From NCBI GenBank assembly GCA_964617045.1, contig CAZTVZ010000001.1, positions 24,521 to 88,520 on the forward strand: a DNA stretch of 64,000 bases, in the 5' to 3' direction. The notes below the pieces were generated by a model, which searched no databases, was not told the origin of the DNA, and saw nothing but the letters and a program-made list of their open reading frames with translations. Shown in pieces: positions 5,654 through 34,558 of this stretch (the first letter of the stretch is position 1; each line of letters opens with the position of its first letter). Both the position numbers and the translations under genes were made by a program. Source of the stretch: an uncultured Gammaproteobacteria bacterium. GTDB lineage: Bacteria > Patescibacteriota > Microgenomatia > UBA8517.

Positions 5654-6304
5654 GTGAATCCAATATTATTTTTAATTGATTTTATTCTTCATATAGATGT
5701 TCATCTGGGAGAGCTTATTTCAATGTACGGGTTTGCAACGTATGCAATTTTATTCGTAATTATTTTTATTGAAACTGGACTTGTTTTTACTCCATTTTTG
5801 CCGGGAGATTCACTTCTTTTTGCAGCAGGAGCATTTGCAGCGCTTGGATCCTTAAACATATTTGTTGTTATTGGTCTTCTTATTGTTGCGGCAGTATTGG
5901 GAGATACATGTAATTATTGGATTGGCCACTTTTTTGGTCAAAAATTGGTTGACAATCCGAAAGTTCCGATTAAAAAAGAGCATATCGAGGAAACTCAAAA
6001 GTTTTTTGAAAAACACGGTGGAAAAACAATTATTTTGGCTAGATTTGTACCAATTGTGAGGACTTTTGCTCCGTTTGTTGCCGGAATAGGAAAGATGCAT
6101 TACGGCAATTTTATTTCATATAACGTAATTGGAGGTATTACCTGGGTTGTTATTGCCTCGGTTGCTGGCTATTTCTTTGGAAATATTCCTCTCGTAAAAG
6201 AAAACTTCTCAGTTGTTATTATTGCAATTGTATTAATATCTGTCATACCCATGCTTATACCTGTTGTTAAAAAGTGGGTTAAGAAATTGATGAAGAAAAA
6301 TTAA
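5654..6304 (+). CDS. DedA/VTT (SNARE-associated) family membrane protein
   Basis: GDSLLFAAGAF...NYWIGHFFG motif, multiple TM segments, 216 aa. Confidence 0.75.
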   Translation: MNPILFLIDFILHIDVHLGELISMYGFATYAILFVIIFIETGLVFTPFLPGDSLLFAAGAFAALGSLNIFVVIGLLIVAAVLGDTCNYWIGHFFGQKLVDNPKVPIKKEHIEETQKFFEKHGGKTIILARFVPIVRTFAPFVAGIGKMHYGNFISYNVIGGITWVVIASVAGYFFGNIPLVKENFSVVIIAIVLISVIPMLIPVVKKWVKKLMKKN

Positions 6305-6924
6305 TTTCTATAGTATCTTCTGATTAGCCCGACTACTTTTCCTTGAATTTTTACGTTTTTAACAAAGATAGGGGACATTTTAGCGTTCGCAGGTTCCAGT
6401 CTTATTCTCGTGGCCTCTTTGAAAAAGCGTTTTAAAGTAGCCATTCCGTTTTCAAGAAGAGCAACGACGATTTCCCCATTATTGGCGTTGTCTGTTTGTT
6501 CAACAACAACATAATCACCGTCTCTGATTTGTTCTTCTATCATCGATTCTCCCCTGACTTGGAGTACGTAAACTCTTTTTTTGCCGCTTACAAACGGTGC
6601 TGGGATAGACATGGTTGCGTTTGGATCTGTATAGGGTTCGATTGGAGCTCCGGCCGCAATAAACCCAAGAATTGGAACATCCATTCCGCTATTTTCAAAA
6701 TCGATGTTTGTTTGTGTTAAATTAATTGCTCTGGTTTTTCCGAGTTTTCTTTTTATTAAACCTTTTTCTTCAAGAGTTTGTAAGTGTTCATGTACCGTAG
6801 CCAAGGAAGACACCCCAATTGCGGTTGCAATTTGTTTCAAAGTGGGAGCAGAGCCCGTTGATTGAATGTGTTGCTTTATAAAGTCCAATATTTGAGATTG
6901 CCTTTTGTAAATTATCGGTGCCAT
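6301..6924 (-). CDS. lexA: LexA repressor (S24 autopeptidase)
   Basis: N-terminal wHTH (LKQIATAIGVSSLATVHEHLQTLEEKGLI). C-terminal S24 domain with the RGESM catalytic Ser motif (VRGESMIEEQIRDGD) and K in ATLKRF. 207 aa. Confidence 0.85.
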   Translation of the reverse strand: MAPIIYKRQSQILDFIKQHIQSTGSAPTLKQIATAIGVSSLATVHEHLQTLEEKGLIKRKLGKTRAINLTQTNIDFENSGMDVPILGFIAAGAPIEPYTDPNATMSIPAPFVSGKKRVYVLQVRGESMIEEQIRDGDYVVVEQTDNANNGEIVVALLENGMATLKRFFKEATRIRLEPANAKMSPIFVKNVKIQGKVVGLIRRYYRN

Positions 6925-7022
6925 ATTAGATAAAAGATACTAATAAAACCCGAAAGTGTCAACTATATCTTTTATAGTCAAAACCCAAAGTTATACCGAA
7001 AAATGTGCTACAATATTTTGGT

Positions 7023-9044
7023 ATGGATTTTAAAATAAACACAAATTTCACTCCAATTCCGGACCAGAAAAATGCAATAGAAAAACTGGTTCAAGGAGTT
7101 AATGGAAACGATAAATATCAAGTACTTTTGGGGGTTACCGGGTCAGGAAAAACATTTACGATGGCCAATGTAATTGAAAAGTTGAACCGTCCAACTCTTA
7201 TTATTTGTCACAATAAAACATTGGCAGGCCAGTTGTACCAAGAAATGAGAGATTTATTTCCCGAAAATGCCGTAAGCTATTTCGTCTCATATTACGATTA
7301 TTACCAGCCGGAAGCATACATTCCCCAAACAGATACTTATATAGAAAAAGATGCCGATATCAATGAATTAATAGATAAATTAAGACTTGCAGCAACAGCC
7401 AACATATTAACCAGGAAAGACACTATCGTTGTTGCCTCGGTCTCTTGTATTTATAACATTGGATCGCCGAAAGAATACGGTAAATTCGTTTTTGAATTTC
7501 GGGAAGGAGTAAAAATATCACGACAACAAATAATCGATAGGCTTGTTGATTTGCAATACGAAAGAGCCGAATTTGGATTTCATAGAGGAACTTTTCGCGT
7601 TAGGGGGGACGCAATTGATGTTTATCCTGCTTACCAAGATGACGGTATTCGTATTGAATTGGACGAAGAAAAAATTGTCAAAGTAACGTTAATCGATTCG
7701 GCAACCGGTGAAGAGAAGAAAGATGATAAATATGACGGTGATGTATTTACACTTTATCCGGCCAAACACTTCATTACAGATCCAAGAGAGAACGAGGATA
7801 AATACAAACAAATATTAAATGATTTGAACAAAAGAGTTGAGGAATTTAAATCTCAAGGGAAAGATATTGAAGCTCATAGATTGAAGCAAAAAGTTTCATA
7901 TGATCTTGATATGCTCAAAGAATTCGGCTTTGTAAAGGGGATCGAAAATTATTCGAGATATTTTGACGGGAGAGAGCCCGGTGAAGCACCCTATTCTTTA
8001 TTGGATTATTTTAAAGAAGCTTCAAACGGTGAATATTTGGTAATCATCGATGAAAGCCACATGACGTTTCCTCAGATCAGGGGTATGTATAACGGTGACC
8101 AGGCAAGGAAACAAATACTAATTGATTATGGATTCAGATTGCCGTCAGCCATAGATAATCGGCCTCTTAAGTTTGATGAATTTATGCGAAGAATTCCTAA
8201 TTTTATTGCTTGTTCAGCAACACCTAATGAGTGGGAAATTAATCTTTCGGAAGGCAAGGTCATAGAACAGTTGTTAAGACCCACCGGAATACCAGATCCT
8301 GAAGTGGAAATAAGACCAACCGAAAAGCAGGTAAAAGACGTAATTGGTGAAATATCGAAGCAAGTAAAAAAAGGACAACGGACATTGGTCACAACACTTA
8401 CCAAAAAAACTGCAGAAGACTTATCAGGATATTTAAACGAACAAGGTTTCAAGGTACATTATCTACATTCAGATGTAAAAACTTTAGACAGAGGAGATAT
8501 TTTAGATGATTTAAGAAGAGGGAATTATGACGTACTTGTTGGAATCAATCTTTTAAGAGAAGGATTGGATTTGCCTGAAGTTTCCTTGGTTGCAATTCTG
8601 GATGCCGATAAAGAAGGGTTTTTACGTTCCGATGTAACCCTTATCCAAACAATGGGCAGGGCGGCAAGACATGCCGAGGGGAGAGTCATTATGTATGCGG
8701 ACAAAATAACAGGATCTATGGACAGGGCATTGAAAGAAGTAAGACGCAGAAGAGAATATCAAATTAAAGAGAATAAAAAAATGGGAATCGTTCCAAAAAC
8801 GGTTGTAAAACCAATAAGAGAAAAATTGATTGAGAGAGATGCTGAAAATGAGATTGAAAAGCAAATATTCGGTCATGAACCTCTTTATTATTCCCTGCCT
8901 ATGATAGACGTTGACGCATATACTCCGATGGAAAAAAGAAGACTAATTGCCAATCTTAAAAAAGAGATGAGAATTGCTGCACAAGATCTTAATTTTGAGT
9001 TGGCTGCAGAGATTAGAGACAAGATAGCGGAGTTGGATAAATAA
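7023..9044 (+). CDS. uvrB: Excinuclease ABC subunit B
   Basis: Walker A GVTGSGKTFT, beta-hairpin region YYDYYQPEAY, helicase motifs, C-terminal UvrB/UvrC interaction helix. ATG at 7023 chosen over GTG at 7005. Confidence 0.95.
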   Translation: MDFKINTNFTPIPDQKNAIEKLVQGVNGNDKYQVLLGVTGSGKTFTMANVIEKLNRPTLIICHNKTLAGQLYQEMRDLFPENAVSYFVSYYDYYQPEAYIPQTDTYIEKDADINELIDKLRLAATANILTRKDTIVVASVSCIYNIGSPKEYGKFVFEFREGVKISRQQIIDRLVDLQYERAEFGFHRGTFRVRGDAIDVYPAYQDDGIRIELDEEKIVKVTLIDSATGEEKKDDKYDGDVFTLYPAKHFITDPRENEDKYKQILNDLNKRVEEFKSQGKDIEAHRLKQKVSYDLDMLKEFGFVKGIENYSRYFDGREPGEAPYSLLDYFKEASNGEYLVIIDESHMTFPQIRGMYNGDQARKQILIDYGFRLPSAIDNRPLKFDEFMRRIPNFIACSATPNEWEINLSEGKVIEQLLRPTGIPDPEVEIRPTEKQVKDVIGEISKQVKKGQRTLVTTLTKKTAEDLSGYLNEQGFKVHYLHSDVKTLDRGDILDDLRRGNYDVLVGINLLREGLDLPEVSLVAILDADKEGFLRSDVTLIQTMGRAARHAEGRVIMYADKITGSMDRALKEVRRRREYQIKENKKMGIVPKTVVKPIREKLIERDAENEIEKQIFGHEPLYYSLPMIDVDAYTPMEKRRLIANLKKEMRIAAQDLNFELAAEIRDKIAELDK

Positions 9045-9046
9045 GA

Positions 9047-9436
9047 TTATCTGATTCTTGTATTGAAATCTTCCAGTTCGGAAATAAATTTAATATTGTG
9101 TTTTTCTTCCAGCCTAAAAATTGCATGGAATTGATATGCGTAGGTTACGGCAGGAGAGTTGTAGGATTGAATGATTCCGTACCCATATTCTTTATTGTTG
9201 TTTTCGGTTATTTGATCGTAACAGTGATCAAACAGACCCAGCATTGACTTGTTGTTCATAATACCCCTGAATTCAAACATTGATATTTTTCCTGAAGAAA
9301 CGAGATTGTTGAAATTGATTAGATGCCTTGAAATTTCTTCCCTAAGCTCGTCCGCTTCATAGATACTTAAACCATGATTTTTGTAAAAGTCTTCTGCTTC
9401 TTGCAAACTAGGTTCTTTGGGCGTGAATTCGACCAT
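9047..9436 (-). CDS. Hypothetical protein (129 aa), antisense-oriented between uvrB and uvrA
   Basis: Clean ORF filling the uvrB-uvrA gap. No motif recognised. Confidence 0.35.
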   Translation of the reverse strand: MVEFTPKEPSLQEAEDFYKNHGLSIYEADELREEISRHLINFNNLVSSGKISMFEFRGIMNNKSMLGLFDHCYDQITENNNKEYGYGIIQSYNSPAVTYAYQFHAIFRLEEKHNIKFISELEDFNTRIR

Positions 9437-9501
9437 ATCGGTATTTTAACAAAATTGATGATATACTCAAGTGTCCGTCGGAAAACCGATGGAGCTTTTG
9501 T

Positions 9502-12423
9502 ATGGAAAACACAATCAAAATACGCGGTGCAAAACAGCATAACTTAAAAAATGTTGATGTCGATATTCCAAAAAACAAACTCGTGGTATTGACCGGTGTG
9601 TCCGGTAGCGGTAAAAGTTCTTTGGCTTTCGATACGTTATATGCGGAAGGCCAAAGAAGATACGTTGAATCTCTTTCAACATATGCCAGACAATTTTTAG
9701 GTGTAATGGAAAAACCAGATGTTGATTATATCGAAGGGTTGTCTCCGGCGATATCTATCGATCAAAAAACCACATCCAGAAATCCACGATCAACTGTGGG
9801 TACTGTTACTGAAATATATGATTATCTCAGACTTCTGTTTGCTAAAATCGGACATCCTCATTGTCCAGTTTGTGGAAGAGAAATATCACAGCAAAGCGTG
9901 GATCAAATTGTTGAAGAAGCCTTATCGTTGATCAAATCAACGGTGACAAATGAAAAAAGAGGATGGTTTCTTGTTTTGTCTCCGGTTGTAAGAGACAGAA
10001 AGGGTGAATATTCTTCGCTTTTCGACAATTTAAAAGCAAAGGGTTATAGGAGGGTAAGAGTGGATGGATACATCAAAGACCTTTCGGAAGATTTTGTTCT
10101 CATAAAAACGAACAAGCATTCTATAGATGTTCAGGTGGATAAATTAAGTCTTACGGAAAAGAATTTAAAAGATCAAAAATATGTTGAAGATCTTAGAAAA
10201 AGATTGTCCGATTCTATCCAGCAGGCATTAAATTTATCTGAGGGAAATGTTATTTTTGCGAAGATTGATGATCAGGGCTTCATTATGCCCGAAGTGCCCA
10301 AAAAGTTCCAAGATACTTTGTTTTCTGAAAGATTTGCATGCCCTGTAGATAATATTCAAATTTCCGAAATCGAACCAAGATCTTTTTCTTTTAATTCTCC
10401 TCAGGGTGCATGTCCATCGTGTACCGGTTTGGGGAAAATTTTGAAAGTAGAACCTTCACTAATTTTCAATGACAATTTGACCATAAGAGAAGGGGGCATT
10501 ACTCCTTTTGCCGCAATGTTTGAAAATGATACTTGGTATTCCAGAATTATTATTGGAGTCTGTGAAGGAAATGGAATCGATTCTAGAAAGCCTTTAAGTG
10601 AAATAACAGATAAAGAAAAACAATTACTTCTCTATGGTACTGGTGACAGGGTTTACAAAATCGAAGGGACAAACAAATCAGGGAAAATGACAAATATATG
10701 GGAGGAATATCATGGAATCGTGGACGAACTAGAAAAAAAATATCAACAGACCGACTCGGATTGGGTCAGAAAAGAAATTGAAAAGTACATGAGAGAACAA
10801 GTATGTGAAGAGTGTAAAGGGGCAAGGCTAAAACAAGAGGTTTTAAGTGTTACCGTTGCCGGTCTTTCGATATCCGAAGTAACCAATTTCTCAATTTCAG
10901 ACGCAATTATCTGGATAAAAGAGCTTGGAGAAAATAAACAAATATTAAATTCAAGGGAAAAAAGAATAGGTGATTTAATTATCAAAGAAATTGCGGACAG
11001 ATTGGGTTTTTTAAGTTCTGTTGGGCTTGAATATCTTACACTCTCGAGAGAAGCGGGAACATTATCGGGAGGAGAAGCGCAAAGAATTCGTTTGGCTTCT
11101 CAGATAGGATCGGGGCTTACAGGAGTTCTTTACGTACTTGATGAACCTACGATCGGTTTACATCAAAAAGATAACAGAAAACTAATAGATACTCTTAAAA
11201 GACTAAGAGATTTGGGTAATACGGTTGTTGTTGTTGAACACGACAAAGAAATGATTGAATCCGCTGATTATGTAATAGATTTCGGTCCTGGTGCTGGTAA
11301 ATTAGGCGGCATGATGGTTTCAGCGGGCACACCGGAACAAATAAAAAAAGATGAAAAATCTCTTACTGGAAAATATCTATCAGGAAAAAGAGATATCGAT
11401 ATTAAAAGAAATAGCCTGGTTGATTTGAAAAACAATAATCTGACAATTAAAGGTTGCTCACAATTTAATCTAAAAAATGTTGATGTTACCTTCCCCCTCG
11501 GTAAATTAATTGCATTAACAGGTTTGTCTGGTTCGGGAAAATCAACATTACTTGTCGAAACAATGTATCCCGCACTAATGAATGAACTTAATCCTCTTTA
11601 TAAACACGAGACTGGGGCTTACAAACATCTTGAAGGAATCGAAAATATTGACAAGGTTATTCTAATCGACCAGTCTCCTATAGGAAGAACACCAAGAAGC
11701 AACCCCGCAACATATACAGGAGTATTTGATCCGATTAGAGATGTCTTTTCCAATACACACGAAGCAAAAGCTTTGGGATTCAAAAAAAGCAGATTCTCTT
11801 TTAACTTAAAGGGAGGAAGATGCGAAGCGTGTGAAGGTCAAGGTCAAACAAAAATTGAAATGCAGTTTATGAGCGATATATGGGTTCCCTGCGAAATATG
11901 TAAAGGTAAAAGATATAACGCACAAACACTTGATGTTACTTATAAAGGTAAGGATATATCTGAAGTTTTGGGCATGACCGTAAGTGAAGCCAAGGAATAT
12001 TTTGTTAATAATCCACACATAATCGATAAACTTGAAACCCTTGAACAAGTAGGCCTTGGATATATTGAATTGGGACAACCGGCAACTACTCTCTCGGGAG
12101 GAGAAGCCCAAAGGGTAAAATTGGCTTCGGAATTATCACGTAAGGCAACCGGTAAAACAGTATATATTTTAGACGAACCTACAACCGGACTTCACTTTGC
12201 GGATGTCGATAGACTATTGAAGGTACTAAGAATATTGGTTGACAAAGGAAACACTGTTATATTAATCGAGCACAATTTGGATGTTATAAAAAATGCCGAC
12301 TACATCATAGATTTGGGACCTGAAGGTGGAGATAAAGGTGGAAAAATTGTTGCTTCAGGTAAAGTAGAAGATATAAAAAAGGTAAAAGAATCATACACAG
12401 GCTTTTACTTAAAATCTCTCTAA
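9502..12423 (+). CDS. uvrA: Excinuclease ABC subunit A
   Basis: Two ABC ATPase modules (GVSGSGKSSLAFDTLYAEGQRRY; GLSGSGKSTL), zinc-finger Cys clusters (CPVCG, CEACEGQG, CEIC), LSGGEAQR signatures. 973 aa. Confidence 0.95.
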   Translation: MENTIKIRGAKQHNLKNVDVDIPKNKLVVLTGVSGSGKSSLAFDTLYAEGQRRYVESLSTYARQFLGVMEKPDVDYIEGLSPAISIDQKTTSRNPRSTVGTVTEIYDYLRLLFAKIGHPHCPVCGREISQQSVDQIVEEALSLIKSTVTNEKRGWFLVLSPVVRDRKGEYSSLFDNLKAKGYRRVRVDGYIKDLSEDFVLIKTNKHSIDVQVDKLSLTEKNLKDQKYVEDLRKRLSDSIQQALNLSEGNVIFAKIDDQGFIMPEVPKKFQDTLFSERFACPVDNIQISEIEPRSFSFNSPQGACPSCTGLGKILKVEPSLIFNDNLTIREGGITPFAAMFENDTWYSRIIIGVCEGNGIDSRKPLSEITDKEKQLLLYGTGDRVYKIEGTNKSGKMTNIWEEYHGIVDELEKKYQQTDSDWVRKEIEKYMREQVCEECKGARLKQEVLSVTVAGLSISEVTNFSISDAIIWIKELGENKQILNSREKRIGDLIIKEIADRLGFLSSVGLEYLTLSREAGTLSGGEAQRIRLASQIGSGLTGVLYVLDEPTIGLHQKDNRKLIDTLKRLRDLGNTVVVVEHDKEMIESADYVIDFGPGAGKLGGMMVSAGTPEQIKKDEKSLTGKYLSGKRDIDIKRNSLVDLKNNNLTIKGCSQFNLKNVDVTFPLGKLIALTGLSGSGKSTLLVETMYPALMNELNPLYKHETGAYKHLEGIENIDKVILIDQSPIGRTPRSNPATYTGVFDPIRDVFSNTHEAKALGFKKSRFSFNLKGGRCEACEGQGQTKIEMQFMSDIWVPCEICKGKRYNAQTLDVTYKGKDISEVLGMTVSEAKEYFVNNPHIIDKLETLEQVGLGYIELGQPATTLSGGEAQRVKLASELSRKATGKTVYILDEPTTGLHFADVDRLLKVLRILVDKGNTVILIEHNLDVIKNADYIIDLGPEGGDKGGKIVASGKVEDIKKVKESYTGFYLKSL

Positions 12424-12441
12424 AATTCGTTATACTTAAAT

Positions 12442-14340
12442 ATGTTTTTACGAAAACTACTCATTTATGTATTCTCCTTTGTGTGTTTGTTGTTATTACC
12501 GTCCAATGTTAAGGCTCAACAAGAATTTGCAACCGACATAAATGTGGAGTATCAGTTTTCAACGACAGGTACTACAAAGGTAATTCACGACGTTTCTTTG
12601 GAAAACGTTTTTTCCAATCTGTACGCGACTTCATATAAGTTATACCTAAACAATATTGATCCGATTTCGCCGAAGGCATTCCAGGACGGTACTGAACTTA
12701 ATTTGACTAAATACAAAGAAAAAGATTCCACTGTTTTAAATGTAGAATTTTCTGATGCAGTTGTAGGTAAGGGTCAAAAAAGAAATTTTAGAATTGAATT
12801 TGAAAACAATTCCTTCGCAACAAGAACCGGTGAAGTTTGGGAAGTATCAATTCCCAAGTTATCCCAAGAAAACAACTTCAGATCTTACAATGTGATACTA
12901 AATGTTCCTTCATCTTTTGGTAACGAGGCATATATTTCCCCGAAAGCAGATGAAGCCAAGAATAATGGTGATTTTAAAATATATTCTTTCTCAAAAGAAA
13001 AGCTTTTAAGTTCAGGCATAACCGCCGGTTTCGGAGCGTTTCAAGTTTTCTCTTTCAATTTCAATTACCATTTGGAAAACCCTCTCAACAGAAGTGCAAT
13101 TACCGAGATTGCTCTTCCTCCAGATACCAATTTGCAAAAAGTATATTACACGGATCTAAAACCAGAACCCGATAACGTGTATGTTGATCCGGACGGCAAC
13201 TGGATTGGTGAATATAAATTGGAACCAAGACAAAGGATCGACGTTCAGGCAAAAGGTTTCGTGCAAATATTTGCAACCGCAAGACCATTCCCAAAGTCTT
13301 CAAAGGAAGTGTTGCAGAATAATTTAAAACCTACTCAATACTGGCAAACTGAACATCCACAGATAAAAGAAATAGCTGCAAAATATAAAACTCCCAAAGA
13401 AATATATGATTTTGTTTGGCAAAATCTAACCTACGACTACAATAACGTAAAGCCAAACGTAGAGAGAAAAGGGGCAGTGCTTGCTCTAAACAACCCAAGT
13501 AGTGCCATATGTATGGAATTTACCGATTTGTTTGTTGCCATAGCCAGAGCTGCTGGGATACCCGCAAGAGAAATTAACGGTTATGCATATACTGAGAATC
13601 CACAAATTCAACCTTTATCCCTTGTTGCCGATGTGCTGCATGCCTGGCCGGAATACTGGGATGAAAAAACAGAATCTTGGATTGCAGTGGACCCAACATG
13701 GGCATCCACAACAGGTGGAGTAGATTTTTTCAGCAAACTTGATTTAAGACATTTTGCTTTTGTCATTCATGGAAACGATTCTTCAAAACCATATCCACCA
13801 GGATCTTACAAGTTGGGGTCTAACCCTCAAAAGGATGTTTTTATTTCATTTGGCCAATTACCTCAGGAAAAACAATCGGCACTGGACATAAAAGTCAGAC
13901 CCCTTGAAGGACTACCTTTCATGAATAGTAAAGTTGAAGTTACCATCAAAAATCCTGGACCATCGGCACTTTACAACCTAGAACCACAAATATTGTTTGA
14001 CGGAAAGTTCGAAACAAGCGGGTTTATCGAAATTCTACCTCCTTTCTCTACTCATAAAATGTCAGTTAGTATTCCCTTTTCGTTTTTGGGTAGTAGTACC
14101 CCAGGAAAAGTAACTGTTTTGGCCAACGGAAGAGAGGCGACAATAATTACGGACAAAAACAAAATGGTAATCTACAACATGATTATTATCAGTATTGTAT
14201 TTTTTGCTGCAATAATCCTTTTGCTGGTAAGATTGGGAAAAATTAAGTTTGGAGTTATAATTGCAAAAATTAGCAGTGTTTTTAAAGGAAAAAATGACAA
14301 GAAACCCCTTTCTCAAGACCAGGTCATACAAGATAAATAA
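12442..14340 (+). CDS. Transglutaminase-like cysteine protease-fold surface protein (signal peptide, C-terminal TM anchor)
   Basis: N-terminal signal peptide. Transglutaminase core Cys-His-Asp (SAICMEFTDLF ... HAWPEYW ... AVDPTW). Hydrophobic C-terminal anchor followed by a basic tail. Confidence 0.65.
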   Translation: MFLRKLLIYVFSFVCLLLLPSNVKAQQEFATDINVEYQFSTTGTTKVIHDVSLENVFSNLYATSYKLYLNNIDPISPKAFQDGTELNLTKYKEKDSTVLNVEFSDAVVGKGQKRNFRIEFENNSFATRTGEVWEVSIPKLSQENNFRSYNVILNVPSSFGNEAYISPKADEAKNNGDFKIYSFSKEKLLSSGITAGFGAFQVFSFNFNYHLENPLNRSAITEIALPPDTNLQKVYYTDLKPEPDNVYVDPDGNWIGEYKLEPRQRIDVQAKGFVQIFATARPFPKSSKEVLQNNLKPTQYWQTEHPQIKEIAAKYKTPKEIYDFVWQNLTYDYNNVKPNVERKGAVLALNNPSSAICMEFTDLFVAIARAAGIPAREINGYAYTENPQIQPLSLVADVLHAWPEYWDEKTESWIAVDPTWASTTGGVDFFSKLDLRHFAFVIHGNDSSKPYPPGSYKLGSNPQKDVFISFGQLPQEKQSALDIKVRPLEGLPFMNSKVEVTIKNPGPSALYNLEPQILFDGKFETSGFIEILPPFSTHKMSVSIPFSFLGSSTPGKVTVLANGREATIITDKNKMVIYNMIIISIVFFAAIILLLVRLGKIKFGVIIAKISSVFKGKNDKKPLSQDQVIQDK

Positions 14341-15610
14341 ATCCGCATTTTCAAAATTACCGGATAGGCCTGGTGTGTATTCATTTCTCAAGCATAAAAG
14401 ACCTGTATATATTGGAAAAGCCGTAAACCTCAAATCACGAATCAAAAGCTATTTAGGAATCGAACTGCTACCTAAAACCAGAAAAATGGTTGAAGAATCA
14501 GACGAACTTCGTGTAATAAAAGTCGATAGTGAATTGGAATCTCTTCTTCTGGAAACGGAACTCATTAGAAAATACCAACCCATCTATAACATTATTTCCA
14601 AAGACGACAAGCATGCGCTTTATATCAGAATAACAAAAGAAAAATACCCCAGAGTTATTACAGCAAGAAAAATTGAAGTAGGTAAGAAGGATAACATTGC
14701 AGTATTTGGTCCATTTCCGTCTTCCGGCAATGTTAAATCGGTTTTAAAAATGATCAGAAAAATATTTCCGTATTCAGATCATAAATTGGGTAAAAAAGTA
14801 TGTTTGGAAAATCAAATAGGTCTTTGTAATCCATGTCCGAATCATATCGAAGCAATTTCAAATATAAATGAGAAAAGCAAAATGTTAACAGAATATTTAA
14901 ACAATATTAGAATGATAAAAAAAATTTTGAGTAGAAAAAGTAATCTTGTAAAAAATGCTCTTAGTAAAAGAATGAGCAAGTTGTCTAAGGATTTGAAATA
15001 CGAGGAAGCATCCAAAATCAGGGACCAAATAAGAAAGCTCGAATATATCCAACAACCGATCAATAGTGAGATAAGCTTTATAGAAAATCCGAACCTCCTT
15101 GAAGATATCAGGAAAGATGAACTGATTAATCTGGAAAAAATAATAGAAAAGTATTACGGCAAAAAGATTACAATATCGAGAATCGAGTGCTTTGATATCG
15201 CACACATATCGGGAGAAAACACCACCGCATCAATGGTTACTTTTATATCCGGTGAGCCTGCCAAAGAATATTATCGTAGAATAAAAATTAGGAAAACGGA
15301 TGGAGTAAACGATATTCAATCTATGGAAGAAGTTGCTCAAATACGTAAAAACAAGCTGGGTAATTGGGGAAAACCAGACTTGATTATTGTTGACGGAGGG
15401 AAAGCTCAAGTCAATGCCTTTAAAAAATATATTGAAGACATCCCGGTAATCGGATTGGCAAAAAGAACCGATAGAATATTGATCGAAGGAAAATATTTGG
15501 ATTTAAGTAAACAAAAATCGTTTAACCTGATCAAGAGAATTGATGACGAAGCCCATCGTTTTGCAAGGAGATATCATCATCTTTTGGTCAAAAAGATGCT
15601 CTTTTCTTGA
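14294..15610 (+). CDS. uvrC: Excinuclease ABC subunit C, short form (GIY-YIG + UvrBC + endonuclease domains; no C-terminal HhH)
   Basis: GIY-YIG motif PGVYSF...VYIGKAVNLKSRIKSY. UvrB-interacting EEASKIRDQIRKLEYI. C-terminal endonuclease IECFDIAHISGENTTASMV. The start is uncertain and overlaps the upstream gene; ATG 14294 or 14261. Confidence 0.8.
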   Translation: MTRNPFLKTRSYKINKSAFSKLPDRPGVYSFLKHKRPVYIGKAVNLKSRIKSYLGIELLPKTRKMVEESDELRVIKVDSELESLLLETELIRKYQPIYNIISKDDKHALYIRITKEKYPRVITARKIEVGKKDNIAVFGPFPSSGNVKSVLKMIRKIFPYSDHKLGKKVCLENQIGLCNPCPNHIEAISNINEKSKMLTEYLNNIRMIKKILSRKSNLVKNALSKRMSKLSKDLKYEEASKIRDQIRKLEYIQQPINSEISFIENPNLLEDIRKDELINLEKIIEKYYGKKITISRIECFDIAHISGENTTASMVTFISGEPAKEYYRRIKIRKTDGVNDIQSMEEVAQIRKNKLGNWGKPDLIIVDGGKAQVNAFKKYIEDIPVIGLAKRTDRILIEGKYLDLSKQKSFNLIKRIDDEAHRFARRYHHLLVKKMLFS

Positions 15611-15642: not shown

Positions 15643-16044
15643 ATGAAAACACTGCTCAGACATTATATTGTTGACACATTCACATTGTATCTGGTGTCTA
15701 CTGTTGCTTCGGGAATAATATTTCAAGATGGATTGAAGACGTTGTTTCTTGCCGGAGTAGGTTTAATGGTCGCCTCTATGCTTATTAAGCCAATAATTAA
15801 TATCCTTCTGCTTCCGATTAATCTGGTTACTTTTGGACTTTTCAAATGGCTTTCGTCTGCAGTTGCTTTGTATTTGGTTGCCCTGGTTATACCTGGACTT
15901 AAAATCGAGCGATTTTTCTACCCAGGTCTTACCACAACTTGGATTGATATACCCCAAATATCTTTCGATGGATTGATGGCCTTTGTGGCTTTTTCTCTTC
16001 TTATTTCCTTCGTAACCTCAATCTTTCACTGGTTGATCAAGTAA
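15643..16044 (+). CDS. DUF360 / 'phage holin 4_2'-family 4-TM membrane protein
   Basis: Pattern LIKPIINILLLPINLVTFGLF...VALYLVALVIPGLKI is typical of PF04020-like proteins. Paralog at 34908. Confidence 0.55.
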   Translation: MKTLLRHYIVDTFTLYLVSTVASGIIFQDGLKTLFLAGVGLMVASMLIKPIINILLLPINLVTFGLFKWLSSAVALYLVALVIPGLKIERFFYPGLTTTWIDIPQISFDGLMAFVAFSLLISFVTSIFHWLIK

Positions 16045-16061
16045 TTTGATATAATTGTACG

Positions 16062-16274
16062 ATGAAAGATTTTTTGATCGTAATTCAGATGCTCGCGGCA
16101 GTTATCCTGGTTGTTTTGATTTTGATGCAGGCCAAGGGCACAGGATTCGGAAGCTCGTGGGGTGGGGGAGGATCTTCTTTTACGCGAAGAGGCTTGGAAA
16201 AACTGGTCTTTAAGATGACATTCGTTGTTACCGCTATTTTTCTTTTGGTTTCGTTTATAAACATTCTTATTTAA
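16062..16274 (+). CDS. secG: Preprotein translocase subunit SecG
   Basis: 70 aa, two TM. LILMQAKGTGFGSSWGGGGSSFTRRGLEKL matches the SecG Gly-rich loop. Confidence 0.8.
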   Translation: MKDFLIVIQMLAAVILVVLILMQAKGTGFGSSWGGGGSSFTRRGLEKLVFKMTFVVTAIFLLVSFINILI

Positions 16275-17596
16275 TGCGCAATCTGCGATATTACTACAGA
16301 CTGGTCGGAGCATTTCTTTCGCGTTTCAAGGCAATTATCATACTGGGTACAATTATCGGAATTGTTGGATTTGTTTTAATTTCTCTTTTTGGATCAACAA
16401 TCTTTTTAACGACTACCCAAACCATCGGATATGTTGGTAAATACCGAATCGATACTCTTCCTCAAGAAATTCTTTCACAAATTAGTGTCGGATTGACGAC
16501 TGTTGATGAAAGCGGAGCCGTACTTCCGGGAATTGCAGAATCCTGGGAAAGTACCGATGGAGGAAAATCTTGGACATTTAAAATTGCCAAAGACATGAAA
16601 TGGCAAGACGACAAAGAAATTACCTCAGATACAATTAATTACACTTTTTCTGACGCTCAGGTTGAAAAGCCTGATGATTATTCTATTACGTTTAAGCTGC
16701 AAAGTCCTTTTGCACCCTTCCCTTCTGTTGTATCTGAACCTTTATTCAAAAAGGGACTTTTAGGTACCGGGGAATGGAAAGTGTCAAAAGCTTCTGTAGT
16801 AGGAAATTATGTACAAAGGCTTACCCTTACAAACGAGCAGGGTGAAAAAAAGATATATAAGTTTTACCCAACCGAAGAAAGAGCAAAACTTGCATACAAA
16901 CTTGGATCTGTTGATAAATTGGAAGGATTGTTTACGAATGACCCGTTTATAAATTGGAGAAACACAACAATTGAAGAAAACATCAGCACATATCGTTATG
17001 CCGCAATATTTTTTAATTTGGCCAATCCTGTTTTGGGCGAAAAAACGATGAGACAAGCCTTGAACTACGCAATAGATAAAGAGGCATTTAACGGTGTCAG
17101 AGCGTTTGGGCCGATATCTCCCGATTCGTGGGCATACAATCCTCAAGTAAAGCCTTACACGTATGACGAAAAACGTGCCGTTGAACTATATGAAGGCTTG
17201 CCTAAAGAATTAAAGGAAAATAAAGATGTAAAAATTAGTACCAGTGTTGTTTTGTTGTCTTCAGCTGAAAAAATTGCTGAATATTGGAGGAAATTGGGAT
17301 TAAATGTCAATGTTGAGGTTGTATCCGGTGTTCCTGCGGAATATCAGGTTTTACTTGCCATTATCGATATTCCGATAGATCCCGATCAATATGCCTTATG
17401 GCACTCTACCCAAGGTCAGACAAATATTACCAAATATTCGAGCCCCAGAATCGACAAGCTTTTGGAAGACGGAAGAATCGAGGTTGATGTTGAACAAAGA
17501 AAAAAAATATACCTGGATTTTCAAAGGTTTTTAGTTGAGGATTCACCAGCAATATTTTTGTACCACCCCATTACTTATACCATTTTAAGGCAATAA
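16274..17596 (+). CDS. Extracellular solute-binding protein, family 5-like (peptide/nickel type), membrane-anchored, no cognate permease nearby
   Basis: N-terminal TM. VDESGAVLPGIAESWESTDGGKSWTFKI and later family-5 SBP-like segments. Shorter than canonical, at about 440 aa. Confidence 0.55.
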   Translation: MRNLRYYYRLVGAFLSRFKAIIILGTIIGIVGFVLISLFGSTIFLTTTQTIGYVGKYRIDTLPQEILSQISVGLTTVDESGAVLPGIAESWESTDGGKSWTFKIAKDMKWQDDKEITSDTINYTFSDAQVEKPDDYSITFKLQSPFAPFPSVVSEPLFKKGLLGTGEWKVSKASVVGNYVQRLTLTNEQGEKKIYKFYPTEERAKLAYKLGSVDKLEGLFTNDPFINWRNTTIEENISTYRYAAIFFNLANPVLGEKTMRQALNYAIDKEAFNGVRAFGPISPDSWAYNPQVKPYTYDEKRAVELYEGLPKELKENKDVKISTSVVLLSSAEKIAEYWRKLGLNVNVEVVSGVPAEYQVLLAIIDIPIDPDQYALWHSTQGQTNITKYSSPRIDKLLEDGRIEVDVEQRKKIYLDFQRFLVEDSPAIFLYHPITYTILRQ

Positions 17597-32810: not shown

Positions 32811-33302
32811 ATGAAACAGCTTTTTCTTCCGATTCTTGGTGCTGCTGCGTTCATAATCATTGTTGGTCTCATGTACAACAACAAACTCCCGTTAAAAAGC
32901 CCTGAAAGCAATAAGGACAGCTCAAAAAATAATATTGTAATAATTTCTGACAACCATATTGAGGTAGAAATTGCCGATTCGTCAGACGAGAGATCAAAAG
33001 GCCTTTCGGGAAGAGACAATCTTGATGAGGGAAAAGGAATGCTCTTTGTCTTAGACCAAAAAAACACACGTCCGGGGTTCTGGATGAAAGGAATGAAAAT
33101 GCCGATAGATATAATTTGGATTAATGATGAAAAGATTATTCAAATTGATTCGGAAGTGCCGTATCCCGATGAAAATGCAAATGAATTTCCAAGCTATTTT
33201 CCCAAGTCCGACATAGATTATGTTTTGGAAGTTCCTTCCGGTTATTCCAATAAAGTTGGTATCAAAGAAGGAGACCAGGTTAAACTTCCTTCACCCTACT
33301 AA
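32811..33302 (+). CDS. DUF192 (COG1430) family secreted protein
   Basis: N-terminal TM/signal. Core ERSKGLSGRDNLDEGKGMLFV ... FWMKGMKMPIDIIWIN matches the DUF192 pattern. Confidence 0.7.
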   Translation: MKQLFLPILGAAAFIIIVGLMYNNKLPLKSPESNKDSSKNNIVIISDNHIEVEIADSSDERSKGLSGRDNLDEGKGMLFVLDQKNTRPGFWMKGMKMPIDIIWINDEKIIQIDSEVPYPDENANEFPSYFPKSDIDYVLEVPSGYSNKVGIKEGDQVKLPSPY

Positions 33303-34558
33303 CCGCTTAAAGTAAACTCCTCTAATTCTTTTACTCCACCGAAAGCAATTCTGTCGGGAACCAGCTCTCTGGTATTAATCATCTTAAGAGGTGCAATTAC
33401 AAACGACCCCCATTTTTCGTTGATATTATCTTGAGCTTTTGTAACTTTTTCTTTTCGTGGTAAGTCTTCAAAAAAATTAAGCTGTAACTCATTTTTTTTG
33501 AGAAGTTCATATACCGAAACCGCTATTTCTCGTACCGGTTTTTTGTATGGTGTTTTATTGAGTAGCTTAAACATTCCCTTGTATATATCCCTGGAATCGT
33601 AAACAGGTTCTTGTAGTTTCTTTGATTGGTGCCAAAAAGACCCGTCTTTATACGAAATTGCCAAATGAATACCTTTTGCTTTGTATCCTGCTTTACGAAG
33701 TCTAAATCCTGTTTTTTGAGAAAGTTTGGTAATTATCGGAGAAAGATCTTCGACTTCGGAAAGCGGTCTCGGAAGCGCAAATGAATTACCATAACTTTTC
33801 CTGGCAAAAACAACATCGTCAATTTCCCAACCTCTAATTCTCAAATACCAATAATACCCAAGTACCGAATGAAATGCCGCTTTTAATTTCCAATACGGTG
33901 CATTGTAGAAATCAAGGACGGTGTGTATTCCAACCCCAGACAGTCTGATTGCATTTTTAATCTTAATCCCGGGCAAATCAGTTATTTTTAATTGAGAGAA
34001 AACCTTTTTGTAATTTCTATAATTTATTTCATCTAAACCGTCGGGTTTCTTGAGTTCCGCTCCCAATTTTGCCAAAAATCTGTTTGGAGCAATTCCGATG
34101 GAAACCGTTAACCATTCTCCGATTTCATTTTTTATCCTTTCTTTGATTTCTTTGGCTATATTGGCAATTCCTTTTTGGAAAGATGGATATCCCTCGAGAT
34201 TCAGAACAAATTCGTCAATACTTTTAGGGGAATAGTCATTTGTGTAATCGGAAATTATTTTACCCAGTTCAATGTGTACAAAACGATACTTCCACGGATC
34301 TGGGCTCAAAACTATTAGCTCGGGGCAAATTAATTTACCTTCTTTAACTCTCATTCCCACTCGTACACCGAGCCTTTTTGCTTCAACGGAAGGTGCAATG
34401 ATACATCCTCCGGGTGAATCGTACGCAGAAACGGCAATGGGTTTTCCTCTTAATAGAGGGTTTGCCTGTTGTTCTATTGTTGCAAAGCAGGAATTGAGAT
34501 CAATGTGTAATATTGTCGAATTCTTTTTGTTAAAAGATATTTCAGTCAGGATTTCCAT
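33299..34558 (-). CDS. Y-family translesion DNA polymerase (DinB/UmuC-like)
   Basis: ILHIDLNSCFATIEQQANPLLRGKPIAV (catalytic Asp region) and the SIDE acidic motif. 419 aa. Confidence 0.8.
   Translation of the reverse strand: MEILTEISFNKKNSTILHIDLNSCFATIEQQANPLLRGKPIAVSAYDSPGGCIIAPSVEAKRLGVRVGMRVKEGKLICPELIVLSPDPWKYRFVHIELGKIISDYTNDYSPKSIDEFVLNLEGYPSFQKGIANIAKEIKERIKNEIGEWLTVSIGIAPNRFLAKLGAELKKPDGLDEINYRNYKKVFSQLKITDLPGIKIKNAIRLSGVGIHTVLDFYNAPYWKLKAAFHSVLGYYWYLRIRGWEIDDVVFARKSYGNSFALPRPLSEVEDLSPIITKLSQKTGFRLRKAGYKAKGIHLAISYKDGSFWHQSKKLQEPVYDSRDIYKGMFKLLNKTPYKKPVREIAVSVYELLKKNELQLNFFEDLPRKEKVTKAQDNINEKWGSFVIAPLKMINTRELVPDRIAFGGVKELEEFTLSG

What the first reader, a model, noticed from the sequence alone, without database searches (positions are those of the whole stretch)
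6301..15610. SOS / nucleotide-excision-repair genes consolidated in one 9-kb neighbourhood (lexA <-> uvrB, uvrA, uvrC)
In most bacteria uvrA, uvrB and uvrC are dispersed. Here lexA is divergently transcribed from uvrB, and uvrA and a shortened uvrC follow within 9 kb. The uvrC lacks the C-terminal (HhH)2 domain.
The cluster is interrupted only by a 129-aa antisense ORF (9047-9436) and a transglutaminase-like surface protein (12442-14340). The 3' end of the transglutaminase gene overlaps the uvrC start region.
This suggests a compact LexA-controlled repair unit. The two intercalated genes are candidates for co-regulated, uncharacterised partners.
Basis: partly seen in the sequence, partly recalled or inferred. 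Interest (0 to 1): 0.55.

Follow-up and report, generated by a model that had tools for sequence, protein, structure and literature searches.

The report
Conserved repair-gene block, partly LexA-controlled
In this tiny-genome (Woesebacteria-like) bacterium the DNA excision-repair genes sit together in a conserved block, but the damage-response repressor LexA appears to control only itself and uvrB, and the UvrC nuclease is a naturally stripped-down version lacking two of its usual non-catalytic domains.

Summary
lexA (6301-6924, -) is divergent from uvrB (7023-9044), followed by a 129-aa antisense ORF, uvrA, a transglutaminase-like gene and a short uvrC that overlaps it by 47 nt.

The block is conserved in 5 of 6 Woesebacteria relatives. 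A distant Colwellbacteria genome has uvrB-uvrA-patatin-uvrC.

I infer a LexA operator, a direct repeat TTCGG-N6-TT(C/T)GG. It lies in the -35/-10 spacer of the lexA promoter, in weaker form next to the uvrB promoter, and twice in the promoter of a small-ORF-dinB operon 28 kb away. Upstream of uvrA, the transglutaminase gene and uvrC, scores stay at background in the window and nearly all relatives. These genes have their own promoter-like boxes, and uvrA has a conserved 5' hairpin.

The 129-aa ORF is a species-level orphan in a slot that holds unrelated genes in every relative. The transglutaminase-like protein is as conserved as UvrC but is secreted and membrane-anchored, so it is an unlikely repair partner.

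UvrC lacks the (HhH)2 domain and also the central RNase H1 domain. Both nuclease sites are intact. All 120 closest homologues and two Parcubacteria share this form.

Verdict: a real, conserved, mostly ordinary SOS/repair neighbourhood. The minimal UvrC is its most interesting feature.

The parts
6301..6924 (-). lexA: self-cleaving SOS repressor, 207 aa
   Evidence: Pfam LexA_DNA_bind plus Peptidase_S24. TIGR00498 equivalog at 205 bits against a cut-off of 111. The sequence shows the Ala-Gly cleavage site (FIAAGAP), the Ser of GESM and the Lys of LKRF.
6934..6962 (-). lexA promoter: -35 TTGACA (6957-6962), 17-nt spacer, -10 TATCTT (6934-6939). The -10 box ends 9 nt before the ATG, so the mRNA is probably leaderless or nearly so (inferred).
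   Evidence: Promoter scan. The same TTGAC(A/G)-17-TATATT layout appears in relatives.
6938..6955 (-). Inferred LexA operator 1: TTTCGGGTTTTATTAGTA, a direct repeat with 11-bp period that fills the promoter spacer
   Evidence: Scores 20.3 bits, second best in the 64-kb window. The homologous box TTCGGGTAATNTTCG sits at the same position in L010, L011, L013, L014, L081 and L082. L009 carries a box that was not in the training set (23.4-23.6 bits). The half-sites are unchanged in close relative L135; its substitutions fall in the spacer.
6984..7001 (-). Inferred LexA operator 2 (weak): TTTCGGTATAACTTTGGG, just upstream of the uvrB extended -10 box TGCTACAAT (7006-7014)
   Evidence: Scores 12.2 bits, rank 6 in the window. 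A positionally equivalent CRAA-N7-CGAA site is present in L010, L013 and L014, and by eye in L009.
7023..9044 (+). uvrB, 673 aa
   Evidence: Pfam ResIII, UvrB_inter, Helicase_C, UvrB and UVR. The 673-aa gene call in close relatives fixes the start at 7023.
9047..9436 (-). 129-aa orphan gene in a variable slot between uvrB and uvrA
   Evidence: Only two homologue clusters, at 99% and 88% identity. It keeps the same slot in L135-L140. Codon differences against L135 are 36 synonymous and 15 non-synonymous. Slot genes of other relatives are unrelated to it and to each other. No family hit in any library.
9462..9493 (+). uvrA promoter -10 box TATACT (9462-9467), followed by a conserved 5' stem-loop (9474-9493) whose 3' arm holds the GGAG Shine-Dalgarno sequence
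   Evidence: The hairpin was flagged by the terminator scan. It folds at -10.7 to -13.9 kcal/mol at the same place in 8 genomes, with three different stem sequences. No LexA box is present.
9502..12423 (+). uvrA, 973 aa
   Evidence: Pfam UvrA_inter, UvrA_DNA-bind and ABC_tran.
12409..12436 (+). Promoter-like element of the transglutaminase gene: TTAAAA-16-TATACT, with the -10 box ending 5 nt before the ATG
   Evidence: Promoter scan. A TATACT or TACAAT box lies at the same distance from the start in L009, L011, L013 and L014.
12442..14340 (+). Transglutaminase-like cysteine-protease-fold protein, 632 aa: signal peptide, beta-sandwich domains, Cys-His-Asp core and C-terminal membrane anchor
   Evidence: Pfam Transglut_core. 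The sequence shows a signal peptide and a C-terminal hydrophobic helix. C357, H400 and D417 are invariant in 22 homologues. AlphaFold2 model with pLDDT 73.5. Foldseek matches only lumenal or extracellular beta-domains. Identity across Woesebacteria is 53-63%.
14233..14261 (+). Possible internal promoter for uvrC inside the 3' end of the transglutaminase gene: TTGGGA-17-TATAAT
   Evidence: Consensus-level match only. L010, L012 and L014 have an extended -10 box, TGnTA(C/A)AAT, 11 nt before the uvrC ATG.
14294..15610 (+). uvrC, minimal form, 438 aa: GIY-YIG, beta/Cys-rich motif, UvrB-binding helical bundle and RNase H2 endonuclease. It has no RNase H1 domain and no (HhH)2 domain.
   Evidence: Pfam. 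PDB alignments. Alignment with full-length UvrC. AlphaFold2 model with pLDDT 87.1. Invariant catalytic residues. TIGR00194 scores 285.3 bits against a cut-off of 285.45.
15643..17596 (+). Right flank conserved in synteny: PF04020 4-TM protein (15643-16044), secG (16062-16274) and an SBP_bac_5 solute-binding protein (16274-17596)
   Evidence: Pfam. The same order is seen in L009-L014.
34803..34857 (-). Two inferred LexA operators (34803-34820 and 34840-34857) in the promoter and leader of the small-ORF-dinB operon. This is the only other place in the window with the operator.
   Evidence: They score 18.1 and 23.1 bits, ranks 3 and 1 of the window. The exact 10-mer AAACCCGAAA occurs 3 times against 0.35 expected, and all three are operator sites. 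Relative L036 has its own version of the box in the -35/-10 spacer upstream of the same two genes.
33299..34802 (-). 86-aa small ORF (34542-34802) overlapping the start of dinB (33299-34558): the second inferred LexA-controlled unit
   Evidence: Pfam IMS and IMS_C for dinB. Translations. The small-ORF family has 306 cluster representatives, typically 86 aa long.

Best explanation
This is a lineage-conserved gene neighbourhood of a Woesebacteria-like (Patescibacteria/CPR) genome. The nucleotide-excision-repair genes lie together but are expressed as several separate units.

Shown:
- The genes, their order and the overlap.
- The conservation of the order in relatives.
- The presence and positions of a shared direct-repeat motif.
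- The domain content of UvrC.

Inferred, regulation:
- The motif TTCGG-N6-TT(C/T)GG is the LexA operator. In the window it reads TTTCGGGTTTTATTAG.
- LexA carries an intact Ala-Gly cleavage site and Ser/Lys dyad. It would sit in the -35/-10 spacer of its own promoter and next to the uvrB promoter.
- It would also sit twice on the small-ORF-dinB promoter 28 kb away.
- After DNA damage, RecA-stimulated self-cleavage would derepress lexA, uvrB and dinB.
- uvrA is outside this control. It has its own promoter, and its transcript starts with a conserved stem-loop that holds the ribosome-binding site. This points to constitutive or post-transcriptional control.
- uvrC is expressed either with the upstream transglutaminase-like gene or from a promoter embedded in that gene's 3' end. 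Either way there is no operator.

Inferred, UvrC function:
- UvrC is a minimal dual nuclease. The GIY-YIG site would make the 3' cut and the RNase H2 DDH site the 5' cut.
- UvrB would recruit it through the retained UVR helical bundle.
- It would work without the RNase H1 platform domain and the (HhH)2 DNA anchor.

The intercalated genes:
- The 129-aa ORF is strain-level cargo in a variable slot.
- The transglutaminase-like protein is a cell-surface enzyme. Its linkage to uvrC reflects physical gene overlap and general collinearity, not shared function.
For: Synteny:
- iPGM-(DedA)-lexA<>uvrB-[slot]-uvrA-TGase-uvrC-PF04020-secG-SBP5 occurs in L009, L010, L011, L013 and L014, at 52-58% UvrC identity.
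- L012 keeps uvrA...TGase-uvrC.
- The TGase/uvrC overlap is 37-59 nt in all seven genomes.
- A Colwellbacteria genome has uvrB-uvrA-patatin-uvrC.

Operator:
- The same box lies in the same promoter spacer of lexA in at least 7 Woesebacteria genomes.
- A scan of metagenomes with the relatives' box found it in the spacer of the small-ORF-dinB promoter of L036. It also found it in the lexA promoter spacer of an unrelated 67%-GC organism whose LexA is 45% identical.
- The window's three best matrix hits are the lexA and dinB sites, at 18-23 bits. The next best hit scores 14.
- The exact 10-mer core occurs 3 times against 0.35 expected. None of 100 shuffles reached 3.
- The intergenic region is about 94% conserved in L135, against 87-90% for the flanking coding DNA. 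The half-sites are untouched.

No operator elsewhere:
- The best scores upstream of uvrA, the TGase gene, uvrC and PF04020 in 7 genomes range from -5 to 9.6 bits. The 95th percentile of random 220-nt windows is 8.5 bits and the 99th is 12.7.

UvrC:
- Domain content.
- Y29, Y39, R49, E87, N99, D301, D367 and H421 are invariant in 31 sequences.
- D. radiodurans UvrC lacking (HhH)2 still makes both incisions, with a weaker 5' cut (PMC10085695).

Intercalated genes.
Against: - No experiment shows that LexA binds the motif. The assignment rests on position and recurrence.
- A matrix built from relatives' sites alone did not separate the window sites from chance: they ranked 2, 4 and 21, and the shuffled top score averaged 14 bits. 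The final matrix includes the window sites, so it is partly circular for the window.
- The uvrB-proximal site is weak (12.2 bits).
- L010 has a candidate box directly before uvrA (15.6 bits). LexA control of uvrA may therefore exist in some relatives.
- The promoter calls are consensus matches, and their number in the region is not above chance (41 found, 39 expected).
- Leaderless starts and transcription units are inferred, not mapped.
- Activity of the minimal UvrC is inferred from conservation only.
- I could not read the one paper on the Patescibacteria SOS network (Sanchez-Osuna et al. 2017).
Confidence: 0.68

Rival explanations
1. One reading: the whole 9-kb block is one compact LexA-controlled repair unit. 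The 129-aa ORF and the transglutaminase-like gene are co-regulated repair partners.
For: - The gene order is conserved.
- LexA boxes lie at the head of the block.
- In L010 and L013 the slot genes point the same way as uvrB and uvrA, so read-through is conceivable there.
- L010 has a candidate box before uvrA.
Against: - In the window the slot gene is antisense and ends 2 nt from the uvrB stop, which argues against read-through.
- There is no operator upstream of uvrA, the TGase gene or uvrC in the window or in most relatives.
- Separate promoter-like boxes lie directly before uvrA and the TGase gene, and possibly uvrC.
- The slot genes are unrelated between genomes.
- The transglutaminase-like protein is extracytoplasmic.
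Confidence: 0.1
2. The clustering is inherited collinearity with no regulatory meaning. The repeated motif is not a LexA site but a promoter-architecture element or the site of another factor.
For: - Unrelated flanking genes (iPGM, PF04020, secG, SBP5) are as syntenic as the uvr genes.
- The matrix built from relatives only was not significant in the window.
- Promoter-like matches are not enriched in the region.
Against: - The motif is found at lexA's own promoter in every genome examined and at dinB in two genomes. These are the two most canonical SOS genes.
- It appears with identical architecture at lexA of a distant high-GC organism.
- It is absent from the other leaderless-type promoters of the block.
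- uvr genes are also clustered in a distant Colwellbacteria genome with different flanks.
Confidence: 0.12
3. The transglutaminase-like protein is a true functional partner of UvrC. It might compensate for the lost DNA-anchoring domains or tether repair to the membrane, which would explain the invariant gene overlap.
For: - The TGase-uvrC adjacency with a 37-59 nt overlap occurs in all seven genomes, including L012 where lexA and uvrB are elsewhere.
- The protein is as conserved as UvrC.
- From my own knowledge, eukaryotic Rad4/XPC contains a transglutaminase fold.
Against: - A signal peptide plus a single C-terminal anchor puts the catalytic domain outside the cell. Only about 35 poorly conserved residues would face the cytoplasm.
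- The Cys-His-Asp triad is intact, which indicates an active enzyme rather than a Rad4-like inactivated DNA binder.
- Foldseek gives no repair-protein match.
- In Colwellbacteria a patatin-like gene occupies that position instead.
Confidence: 0.05

Closest known systems
LexA-regulated uvrB-uvrA (uvrBA) operon of Bacillus subtilis and other Firmicutes (from my own knowledge)
   Same: uvrB and uvrA are neighbours in the same orientation. A LexA operator lies at the uvrB promoter. uvrC is not under the same operator.
   Different: - Here lexA itself is the divergent neighbour.
- uvrA has its own promoter and a 5' hairpin, and an unrelated, variable gene separates it from uvrB.
- uvrC lies 2 kb further on.
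- The operator is a direct repeat rather than the GAAC-N4-GTTC palindrome.
Alphaproteobacterial LexA box GTTC-N7-GTTC, a direct-repeat operator (cited in PMC8565304)
   Same: It is a direct repeat with an 11-bp period. The relatives' box TTCGGGTAATGTTCG reads (A/T)TTC-N7-GTTC.
   Different: - The conserved half-site here extends to TTCGG.
- The window's own copies have degenerate downstream halves (TTAG, TTGG).
- The organism is a Patescibacterium.
- I did not test whether the LexA proteins are specifically related.
Canonical UvrC, about 600 aa (D. radiodurans and T. maritima; PMC10085695)
   Same: - GIY-YIG nuclease.
- Cys-rich motif: C170, C178 and C181 are invariant, with His163.
- UVR/UvrB-binding helical bundle.
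- C-terminal RNase H2 endonuclease with the DDH triad.
   Different: - It lacks the central RNase H1 domain, which that paper describes as highly conserved and as the platform for the other domains.
- It lacks the (HhH)2 domain needed for efficient 5' incision.
- It is about 170-200 residues shorter.
Cho (UvrC homologue, E. coli ydjQ)
   Same: It is a shortened UvrC-family nuclease. The window protein gives a weak NCBIfam hit to Cho (62.8 bits against a cut-off of 367).
   Different: From my own knowledge, Cho lacks the whole C-terminal half and makes only the 3' cut. This protein keeps the RNase H2 5'-incision domain with its catalytic triad. All 120 of its closest homologues are this same short form, but I have not checked whether the genome also carries a full-length UvrC.
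Bacterial transglutaminase-like cysteine proteases (Pfam Transglut_core, PF01841)
   Same: The core domain has an invariant Cys-His-Asp triad.
   Different: The architecture is lineage-specific: signal peptide, two beta-sandwich domains, the core, an Ig-like domain and a C-terminal anchor. The gene also has a fixed position overlapping uvrC.

Membership tests
UvrC (excinuclease ABC subunit C) | N-terminal GIY-YIG nuclease with its catalytic Tyr, Arg, Glu and Asn residues | tested here: met
   Pfam GIY-YIG. It aligns to 1ycz and 1yd6. Y29, Y39, R49, E87 and N99 are invariant in 31 homologues.
UvrC (excinuclease ABC subunit C) | UVR/UvrB-binding helical motif | tested here: met
   Pfam UVR, E = 3.5e-8. 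The model shows helices at 191-253.
UvrC (excinuclease ABC subunit C) | Central RNase H1-like platform domain (PF22920) | tested here: not met
   - PF22920 is found in the Globicatella control. It is absent from the window protein, three Woesebacteria homologues and two Parcubacteria proteins.
- The alignment shows a gap of about 100 residues.
- The AlphaFold2 model has only a linker and one helix between residues 254 and 295.
UvrC (excinuclease ABC subunit C) | C-terminal RNase H2 endonuclease domain with the DDH triad | tested here: met
   PF08459, E = 5e-37. It aligns to 2nrt and 3c65. D301, D367 and H421 are invariant.
UvrC (excinuclease ABC subunit C) | [quoted passage not shown] | tested here: not met
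   - The protein ends at the position of residue 159 of the 220-residue 2nrt_A fragment.
- No HHH family is detected, whereas the control shows HHH_5 and HHH_2.
- None of the 120 closest homologues carries an HhH family.
UvrC (excinuclease ABC subunit C) | Passes the curated equivalog model TIGR00194 | tested here: inconclusive
   It scores 285.3 bits against a cut-off of 285.45, just below threshold because of the two missing domains.
LexA repressor | Winged-helix LexA DNA-binding domain plus an S24 self-cleaving domain with an Ala-Gly site and a Ser/Lys dyad | tested here: met
   Pfam and TIGR00498 at 205 bits against a cut-off of 111. Full-length alignment to T. maritima LexA 3k2z. AAG, GESM and LKRF are visible in the sequence.
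LexA repressor | Autoregulation: an operator in its own promoter | tested here: met
   A direct-repeat box lies in the -35/-10 spacer of the lexA promoter in the window and in at least 7 related genomes. Binding itself cannot be tested with these tools.
SOS (LexA-controlled) regulon membership of each gene in the block | A LexA operator at the gene's promoter: uvrB | tested here: inconclusive
   A weak site (12.2 bits) adjoins the uvrB -10 box. Stronger equivalents occur in L010 (20.9-21.3 bits) and L014 (19.3-19.8 bits). The strong lexA box lies 68 nt upstream of the uvrB start.
SOS (LexA-controlled) regulon membership of each gene in the block | A LexA operator at the gene's promoter: uvrA, the transglutaminase gene, uvrC and the 129-aa ORF | tested here: not met
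   The best scores in the -200..+20 regions of uvrA, the TGase gene and uvrC are at background in the window (0.1, 0.8 and 4.3 bits) and in six relatives. The only exception is L010 uvrA (15.6 bits). The 129-aa ORF shares the 65-nt uvrA intergenic region, which holds no site.
Transglutaminase-like cysteine protease superfamily | Transglut_core domain with a Cys-His-Asp triad | tested here: met
   PF01841, E = 3e-17. C357, H400 and D417 are invariant. This part of the AlphaFold2 model has low confidence.

The most novel reading that the evidence does not exclude
Woesebacteria and at least some Parcubacteria may run UvrABC repair with a natural minimal UvrC. It keeps both nuclease sites and the UvrB-binding bundle. 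It has lost the central RNase H1 platform domain and the (HhH)2 DNA anchor, two domains regarded as conserved and, for (HhH)2, as needed for efficient 5' incision. If so, either these domains are dispensable in vivo or an unrecognised partner supplies their function in trans. In parallel, LexA of this lineage uses a direct-repeat operator of the alphaproteobacterial type and controls only a very small set of genes (lexA, uvrB and small-ORF-dinB).
Probability: 0.4. Interest if true: 0.6.

Novelty: new variant of a known kind. Interest (0 to 1): 0.4.

Why it matters
NER enzymology: a natural UvrC without the RNase H1 and (HhH)2 domains is a ready-made test of what those domains do. Their roles are listed as open questions in the 2023 structural study of D. 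radiodurans UvrC (PMC10085695). Cloning one small gene set and running a standard incision assay would give a direct answer.

SOS evolution: the locus gives a clean, position-defined operator for an uncultivated lineage. It suggests a minimal regulon in which uvrB and dinB respond to damage but uvrA and uvrC do not.

Genome annotation: conserved neighbours in streamlined CPR genomes, here a surface transglutaminase-like protein overlapping uvrC, need not be functional partners.

Tried and rejected
1. A weight matrix built only from relatives' sites did not separate the window's sites from chance. The window's box has diverged (TTTTATTAG against TAATGTTCG). I therefore relied on exact-core counts, position and independent genomes.
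2. The single genome-contig scan with UvrC returned only distant genomes at 32-41% identity. Close relatives came from the look-up of encoding contigs instead.
Most of the 120 loci were chance matches in unrelated DNA, and only 4 were informative.
4. The Sanchez-Osuna et al. 2017 paper on the Patescibacteria SOS network is not held. Papers citing it do not restate its motif. I cannot say whether the operator is already published.
5. I looked for a link between the transglutaminase fold and Rad4/XPC. Foldseek found no such match, and the topology is extracellular. Rejected.
6. I considered a programmed frameshift fusing the transglutaminase tail to UvrC. The overlap length and frame vary between genomes (37, 47, 50 and 59 nt), and the tail is not conserved. 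Rejected.
7. The 129-aa ORF gave nothing in Pfam, NCBIfam, PHROGs or PADLOC.
8. RNAalifold on the uvrA leader was compromised by a wrong L010 coordinate and by loop-length differences. I replaced it with per-sequence folding.
9. recA was not found among the ORFs I screened with Pfam, which cover most but not all of the larger ORFs in the window. Its promoter could not be checked.

Full report
**1. What is there**

- lexA: 6301-6924 (-).
- uvrB: ORF from 7005. The real start is most likely the ATG at 7023, giving the 673 aa called in close relatives.
- A 129-aa ORF on the opposite strand: 9047-9436.
- uvrA: 9502-12423.
- A transglutaminase-like gene: 12442-14340.
- uvrC: ORF from 14261, likely ATG at 14294, ending at 15610. 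It overlaps the transglutaminase gene by 47 nt.

LexA is a standard self-cleaving repressor. It passes TIGR00498 well above cut-off, and the Ala-Gly site and Ser/Lys dyad are visible.

The left flank is glycolytic genes and a DedA/VTT protein (PPDK, enolase, iPGM). The right flank is a PF04020 4-TM protein, secG and an SBP_bac_5 binding protein.

**2. Whose genome, and is the order conserved?**

The closest UvrC and transglutaminase homologues that carry a name are from Candidatus Woesebacteria, Microgenomates and the 'Patescibacteria group'. The composition (about 37-38% GC) and scattered tRNA genes fit such a genome.

I fetched six contigs encoding UvrC homologues of 52-58% identity.
- Five carry iPGM-(DedA)-lexA<>uvrB-[slot]-uvrA-transglutaminase-uvrC-PF04020-(secG)-SBP5.
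- The sixth is a complete 1.08-Mb genome. It keeps uvrA...transglutaminase-uvrC, but lexA and uvrB are not in the 3.5 kb held upstream of uvrA.
- The transglutaminase/uvrC overlap of 37-59 nt is present in all seven genomes.

More distant genomes also cluster these genes. A Colwellbacteria genome has uvrB-uvrA-patatin-uvrC. A Parcubacteria genome has uvrC next to a convergent uvrB.

Clustering of uvr genes is therefore a real and fairly deep CPR trait. Within Woesebacteria the unrelated flanking genes are equally syntenic, so part of the conservation is plain collinearity.

**3. The LexA operator**

Aligning the lexA-uvrB intergenic regions by eye showed a shared box. On the lexA strand it reads TTGAC(A/G)-(N)TTCGGGTAATNTTCG-TATATT. 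This is a direct repeat with an 11-bp period that fills the spacer between the -35 and -10 hexamers. In the window the box is TTTCGGGTTTTATTAGTA (6938-6955), between TTGACA and TATCTT.

Evidence that the box is a real, shared element:
- The 10-mer core AAACCCGAAA occurs exactly three times in 64 kb, against 0.35 expected. None of 100 shuffles reached three. One copy is at lexA.
- There the distal box again fills a promoter spacer (TTGATT...TATATA). The proximal box abuts the start codon of an 86-aa ORF (34542-34802) that overlaps the start of dinB.
- I scanned metagenomes for the relatives' version of the box, CGAANATTACCCGAA. Most of the 120 returned loci were chance matches.
- The informative loci were two further lexA promoters, one contig with the box in the promoter spacer of the same small-ORF-dinB pair (L036), and a 67%-GC contig. 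In that contig the identical box sits in the TTGCAC-17-TATAGT spacer of a lexA gene whose product is 45% identical to the window's LexA.
- A matrix built from all sites puts the lexA and dinB sites at ranks 1-3 of the window (18-23 bits, next best 14). It also finds an untrained site in L009.
- In the close relative L135 the intergenic region is better conserved than the flanking coding DNA. All substitutions in the boxes fall between the half-sites.

Taken together this is the classic signature of a LexA operator. Binding remains inferred.

Caveat: a matrix built from relatives' sites alone was not significant in the window, because the window's boxes have diverged.

**4. What the operator does and does not cover**

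A second, weaker site (6984-7001, 12.2 bits) adjoins the extended -10 box of uvrB (TGCTACAAT, 7006-7014). Stronger equivalents occur at the same place in L010 and L014, and a weaker one in L013. uvrB is therefore plausibly SOS-controlled.

The 220 nt upstream of uvrA, the transglutaminase gene, uvrC and PF04020 score at background in the window and in six relatives. The one exception is a 15.6-bit candidate just before uvrA in L010.

Each of these genes has its own promoter-like element:
- uvrA has a TATACT/TATAAT box, followed at once by a conserved stem-loop (window 9474-9493). The stem-loop folds at -10.7 to -13.9 kcal/mol in eight genomes, with three different stem sequences. Its 3' arm holds the ribosome-binding site.
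- The transglutaminase gene has a TATACT box 5-9 nt before its ATG in five genomes.
- uvrC has a TTGGGA-17-TATAAT match inside the transglutaminase 3' end. In three relatives it has a TGnTA(C/A)AAT box 11 nt before its ATG.

These are consensus matches, not mapped starts. Overall promoter-like matches are not enriched in the region. With that caveat, the block looks like four or five transcription units, of which only lexA and uvrB carry the operator.

**5. The two intercalated genes**

The 129-aa ORF:
- It has homologues only at 99% and 88% identity, always in the same slot.
- Its substitution pattern (36 synonymous, 15 non-synonymous codon changes) suggests a real but weakly constrained gene.
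- It hits no family in any library.
- In other relatives the slot holds BacA plus a 100-aa ORF, a 191-aa ORF, 120- and 67-aa ORFs, or a 127-aa ORF. None is similar to another.
- It is variable cargo, not a partner.

The transglutaminase-like protein:
- It is strongly conserved, at 53-63% identity, with the Cys357-His400-Asp417 triad invariant.
- It has a signal peptide, beta-sandwich and Ig-like domains, and a single C-terminal anchor.
- Foldseek matches only lumenal or extracellular beta-domains and nothing repair-related.
- It is a surface enzyme. Its tie to uvrC is physical, through overlap and possibly an embedded promoter, rather than functional.

**6. UvrC**

The protein stops at the equivalent of residue 159 of the 220-residue T. 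maritima fragment.

It is about 170-200 residues shorter than a normal UvrC, so more than (HhH)2 is gone.
- The central RNase H1-like domain (PF22920) is detected in a Globicatella control. It is absent from the window protein, three Woesebacteria homologues and two Parcubacteria proteins.
- The alignment shows a clean gap of about 100 residues.
- A confident AlphaFold2 model (pLDDT 87) has only a linker and one helix between the UvrB-binding bundle and the RNase H2 domain.

Both active sites are invariant. All 120 closest homologues are 418-498 aa long and carry neither domain in their precomputed Pfam lists.

Published work on D. radiodurans UvrC gives context (PMC10085695).
- Deleting (HhH)2 leaves dual incision with a weaker 5' cut.
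- RNase H1 is described there as highly conserved and as the platform of the enzyme.
- A lineage that has lost both domains is therefore informative. I found no paper in the library that mentions it.

**7. Verdict**

The locus is a conserved SOS/NER neighbourhood of a known kind. It has three variant features: a direct-repeat operator resembling the alphaproteobacterial GTTC-N7-GTTC type, LexA control apparently restricted to lexA, uvrB and dinB, and a minimal UvrC. Interest is moderate.

Noticed in passing
window 9462-9504; also L009, L010, L011, L012, L013, L014, L135: The uvrA transcript appears to begin with a conserved stem-loop directly after the -10 box. It scores -10.7 to -13.9 kcal/mol and has three different stem sequences across genomes. 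In five relatives the stem keeps a conserved A-C mismatch where the window has G-U. The 3' arm contains the Shine-Dalgarno-like GGAG/GGCGGG and is followed by a T-rich run. It could be a 5' mRNA stabiliser, a translational gate or an attenuator.
   Followed up: partly
window 34542-34802 (-): An 86-aa ORF sits upstream of dinB and overlaps its start by 17 nt. It has no Pfam, NCBIfam, PHROGs or PADLOC match. It nevertheless belongs to a family with 306 cluster representatives (84 at E <= 1e-10), mostly exactly 86 aa long. The pair recurs in L036 behind a LexA box. It may be an uncharacterised DinB accessory protein.
   Followed up: partly
window 15643-16044 (+) and 34908-35246 (+): Two PF04020 (4-TM, 'holin superfamily IV') paralogues each sit next to an SOS-related locus. 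One lies directly after uvrC and is conserved in synteny. The other is divergent from the small-ORF-dinB operon, with the LexA boxes between them. Their promoter regions both begin TTCTTGACATT(C)GGAA. I did not resolve whether the second paralogue is LexA-controlled.
   Followed up: no
L133 10860-10900: A 67%-GC metagenome contig carries the same box, TTCGGGTAATATTCGG, in the TTGCAC-17-TATAGT spacer of its lexA promoter. Its neighbours are trp-like genes by ORF translation, and its LexA is 45% identical to the window's. This operator type is therefore not confined to Woesebacteria.
   Followed up: partly
L010 5205-5222: In one relative a LexA-box-like sequence (ATTCGTGTTTTGTTAGGG, 15.6 bits) followed by TATAAA lies directly before the uvrA start. 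It is downstream of the usual hairpin and of a decayed 14-codon copy of the gene start. LexA control of uvrA may have been gained in that lineage.
   Followed up: partly
window 6934-6924, 7009-7023, 12431-12442, 15630-15643, 34895-34908: Many genes in the block (lexA, uvrB, the transglutaminase gene and both PF04020 genes) have a -10-like box ending 5-9 nt before the start codon and no Shine-Dalgarno sequence. This suggests leaderless mRNAs. uvrA and uvrC, by contrast, have leaders with GGAG/AGGA.
   Followed up: no
L008 9971-11551 (Mesomycoplasma ovipneumoniae): The mycoplasma UvrC ORF (526 aa) also ends right after the RNase H2 domain, with no (HhH)2. Loss of this domain may be a recurrent feature of reduced genomes.
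   Followed up: no
window 9045-9501 and the equivalent slot in L009-L014: The gap between uvrB and uvrA is a variable slot. Every genome examined holds different, unrelated small genes there, in either orientation.
   Followed up: yes
window 39737-39754 (+): ATTCGGGTATAATTTACA (10.3 bits) lies 8 nt before the infC start. It is a half-decent operator match that overlaps a TATAAT box. It is probably chance.
   Followed up: no
window 51774-63988 (-): A long minus-strand gene run includes type IV pilus genes: PilM, a T2SSF/PilC-like protein, and six consecutive 155-177-aa genes with the N-terminal methylation motif (pilin-like paralogues, 55464-58350).
   Followed up: no
window 30373-30886: A tight array of six tRNA genes (Leu, Leu, Val, Phe, Gly, Arg), plus nine more scattered across 20-37 kb.
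   Followed up: no
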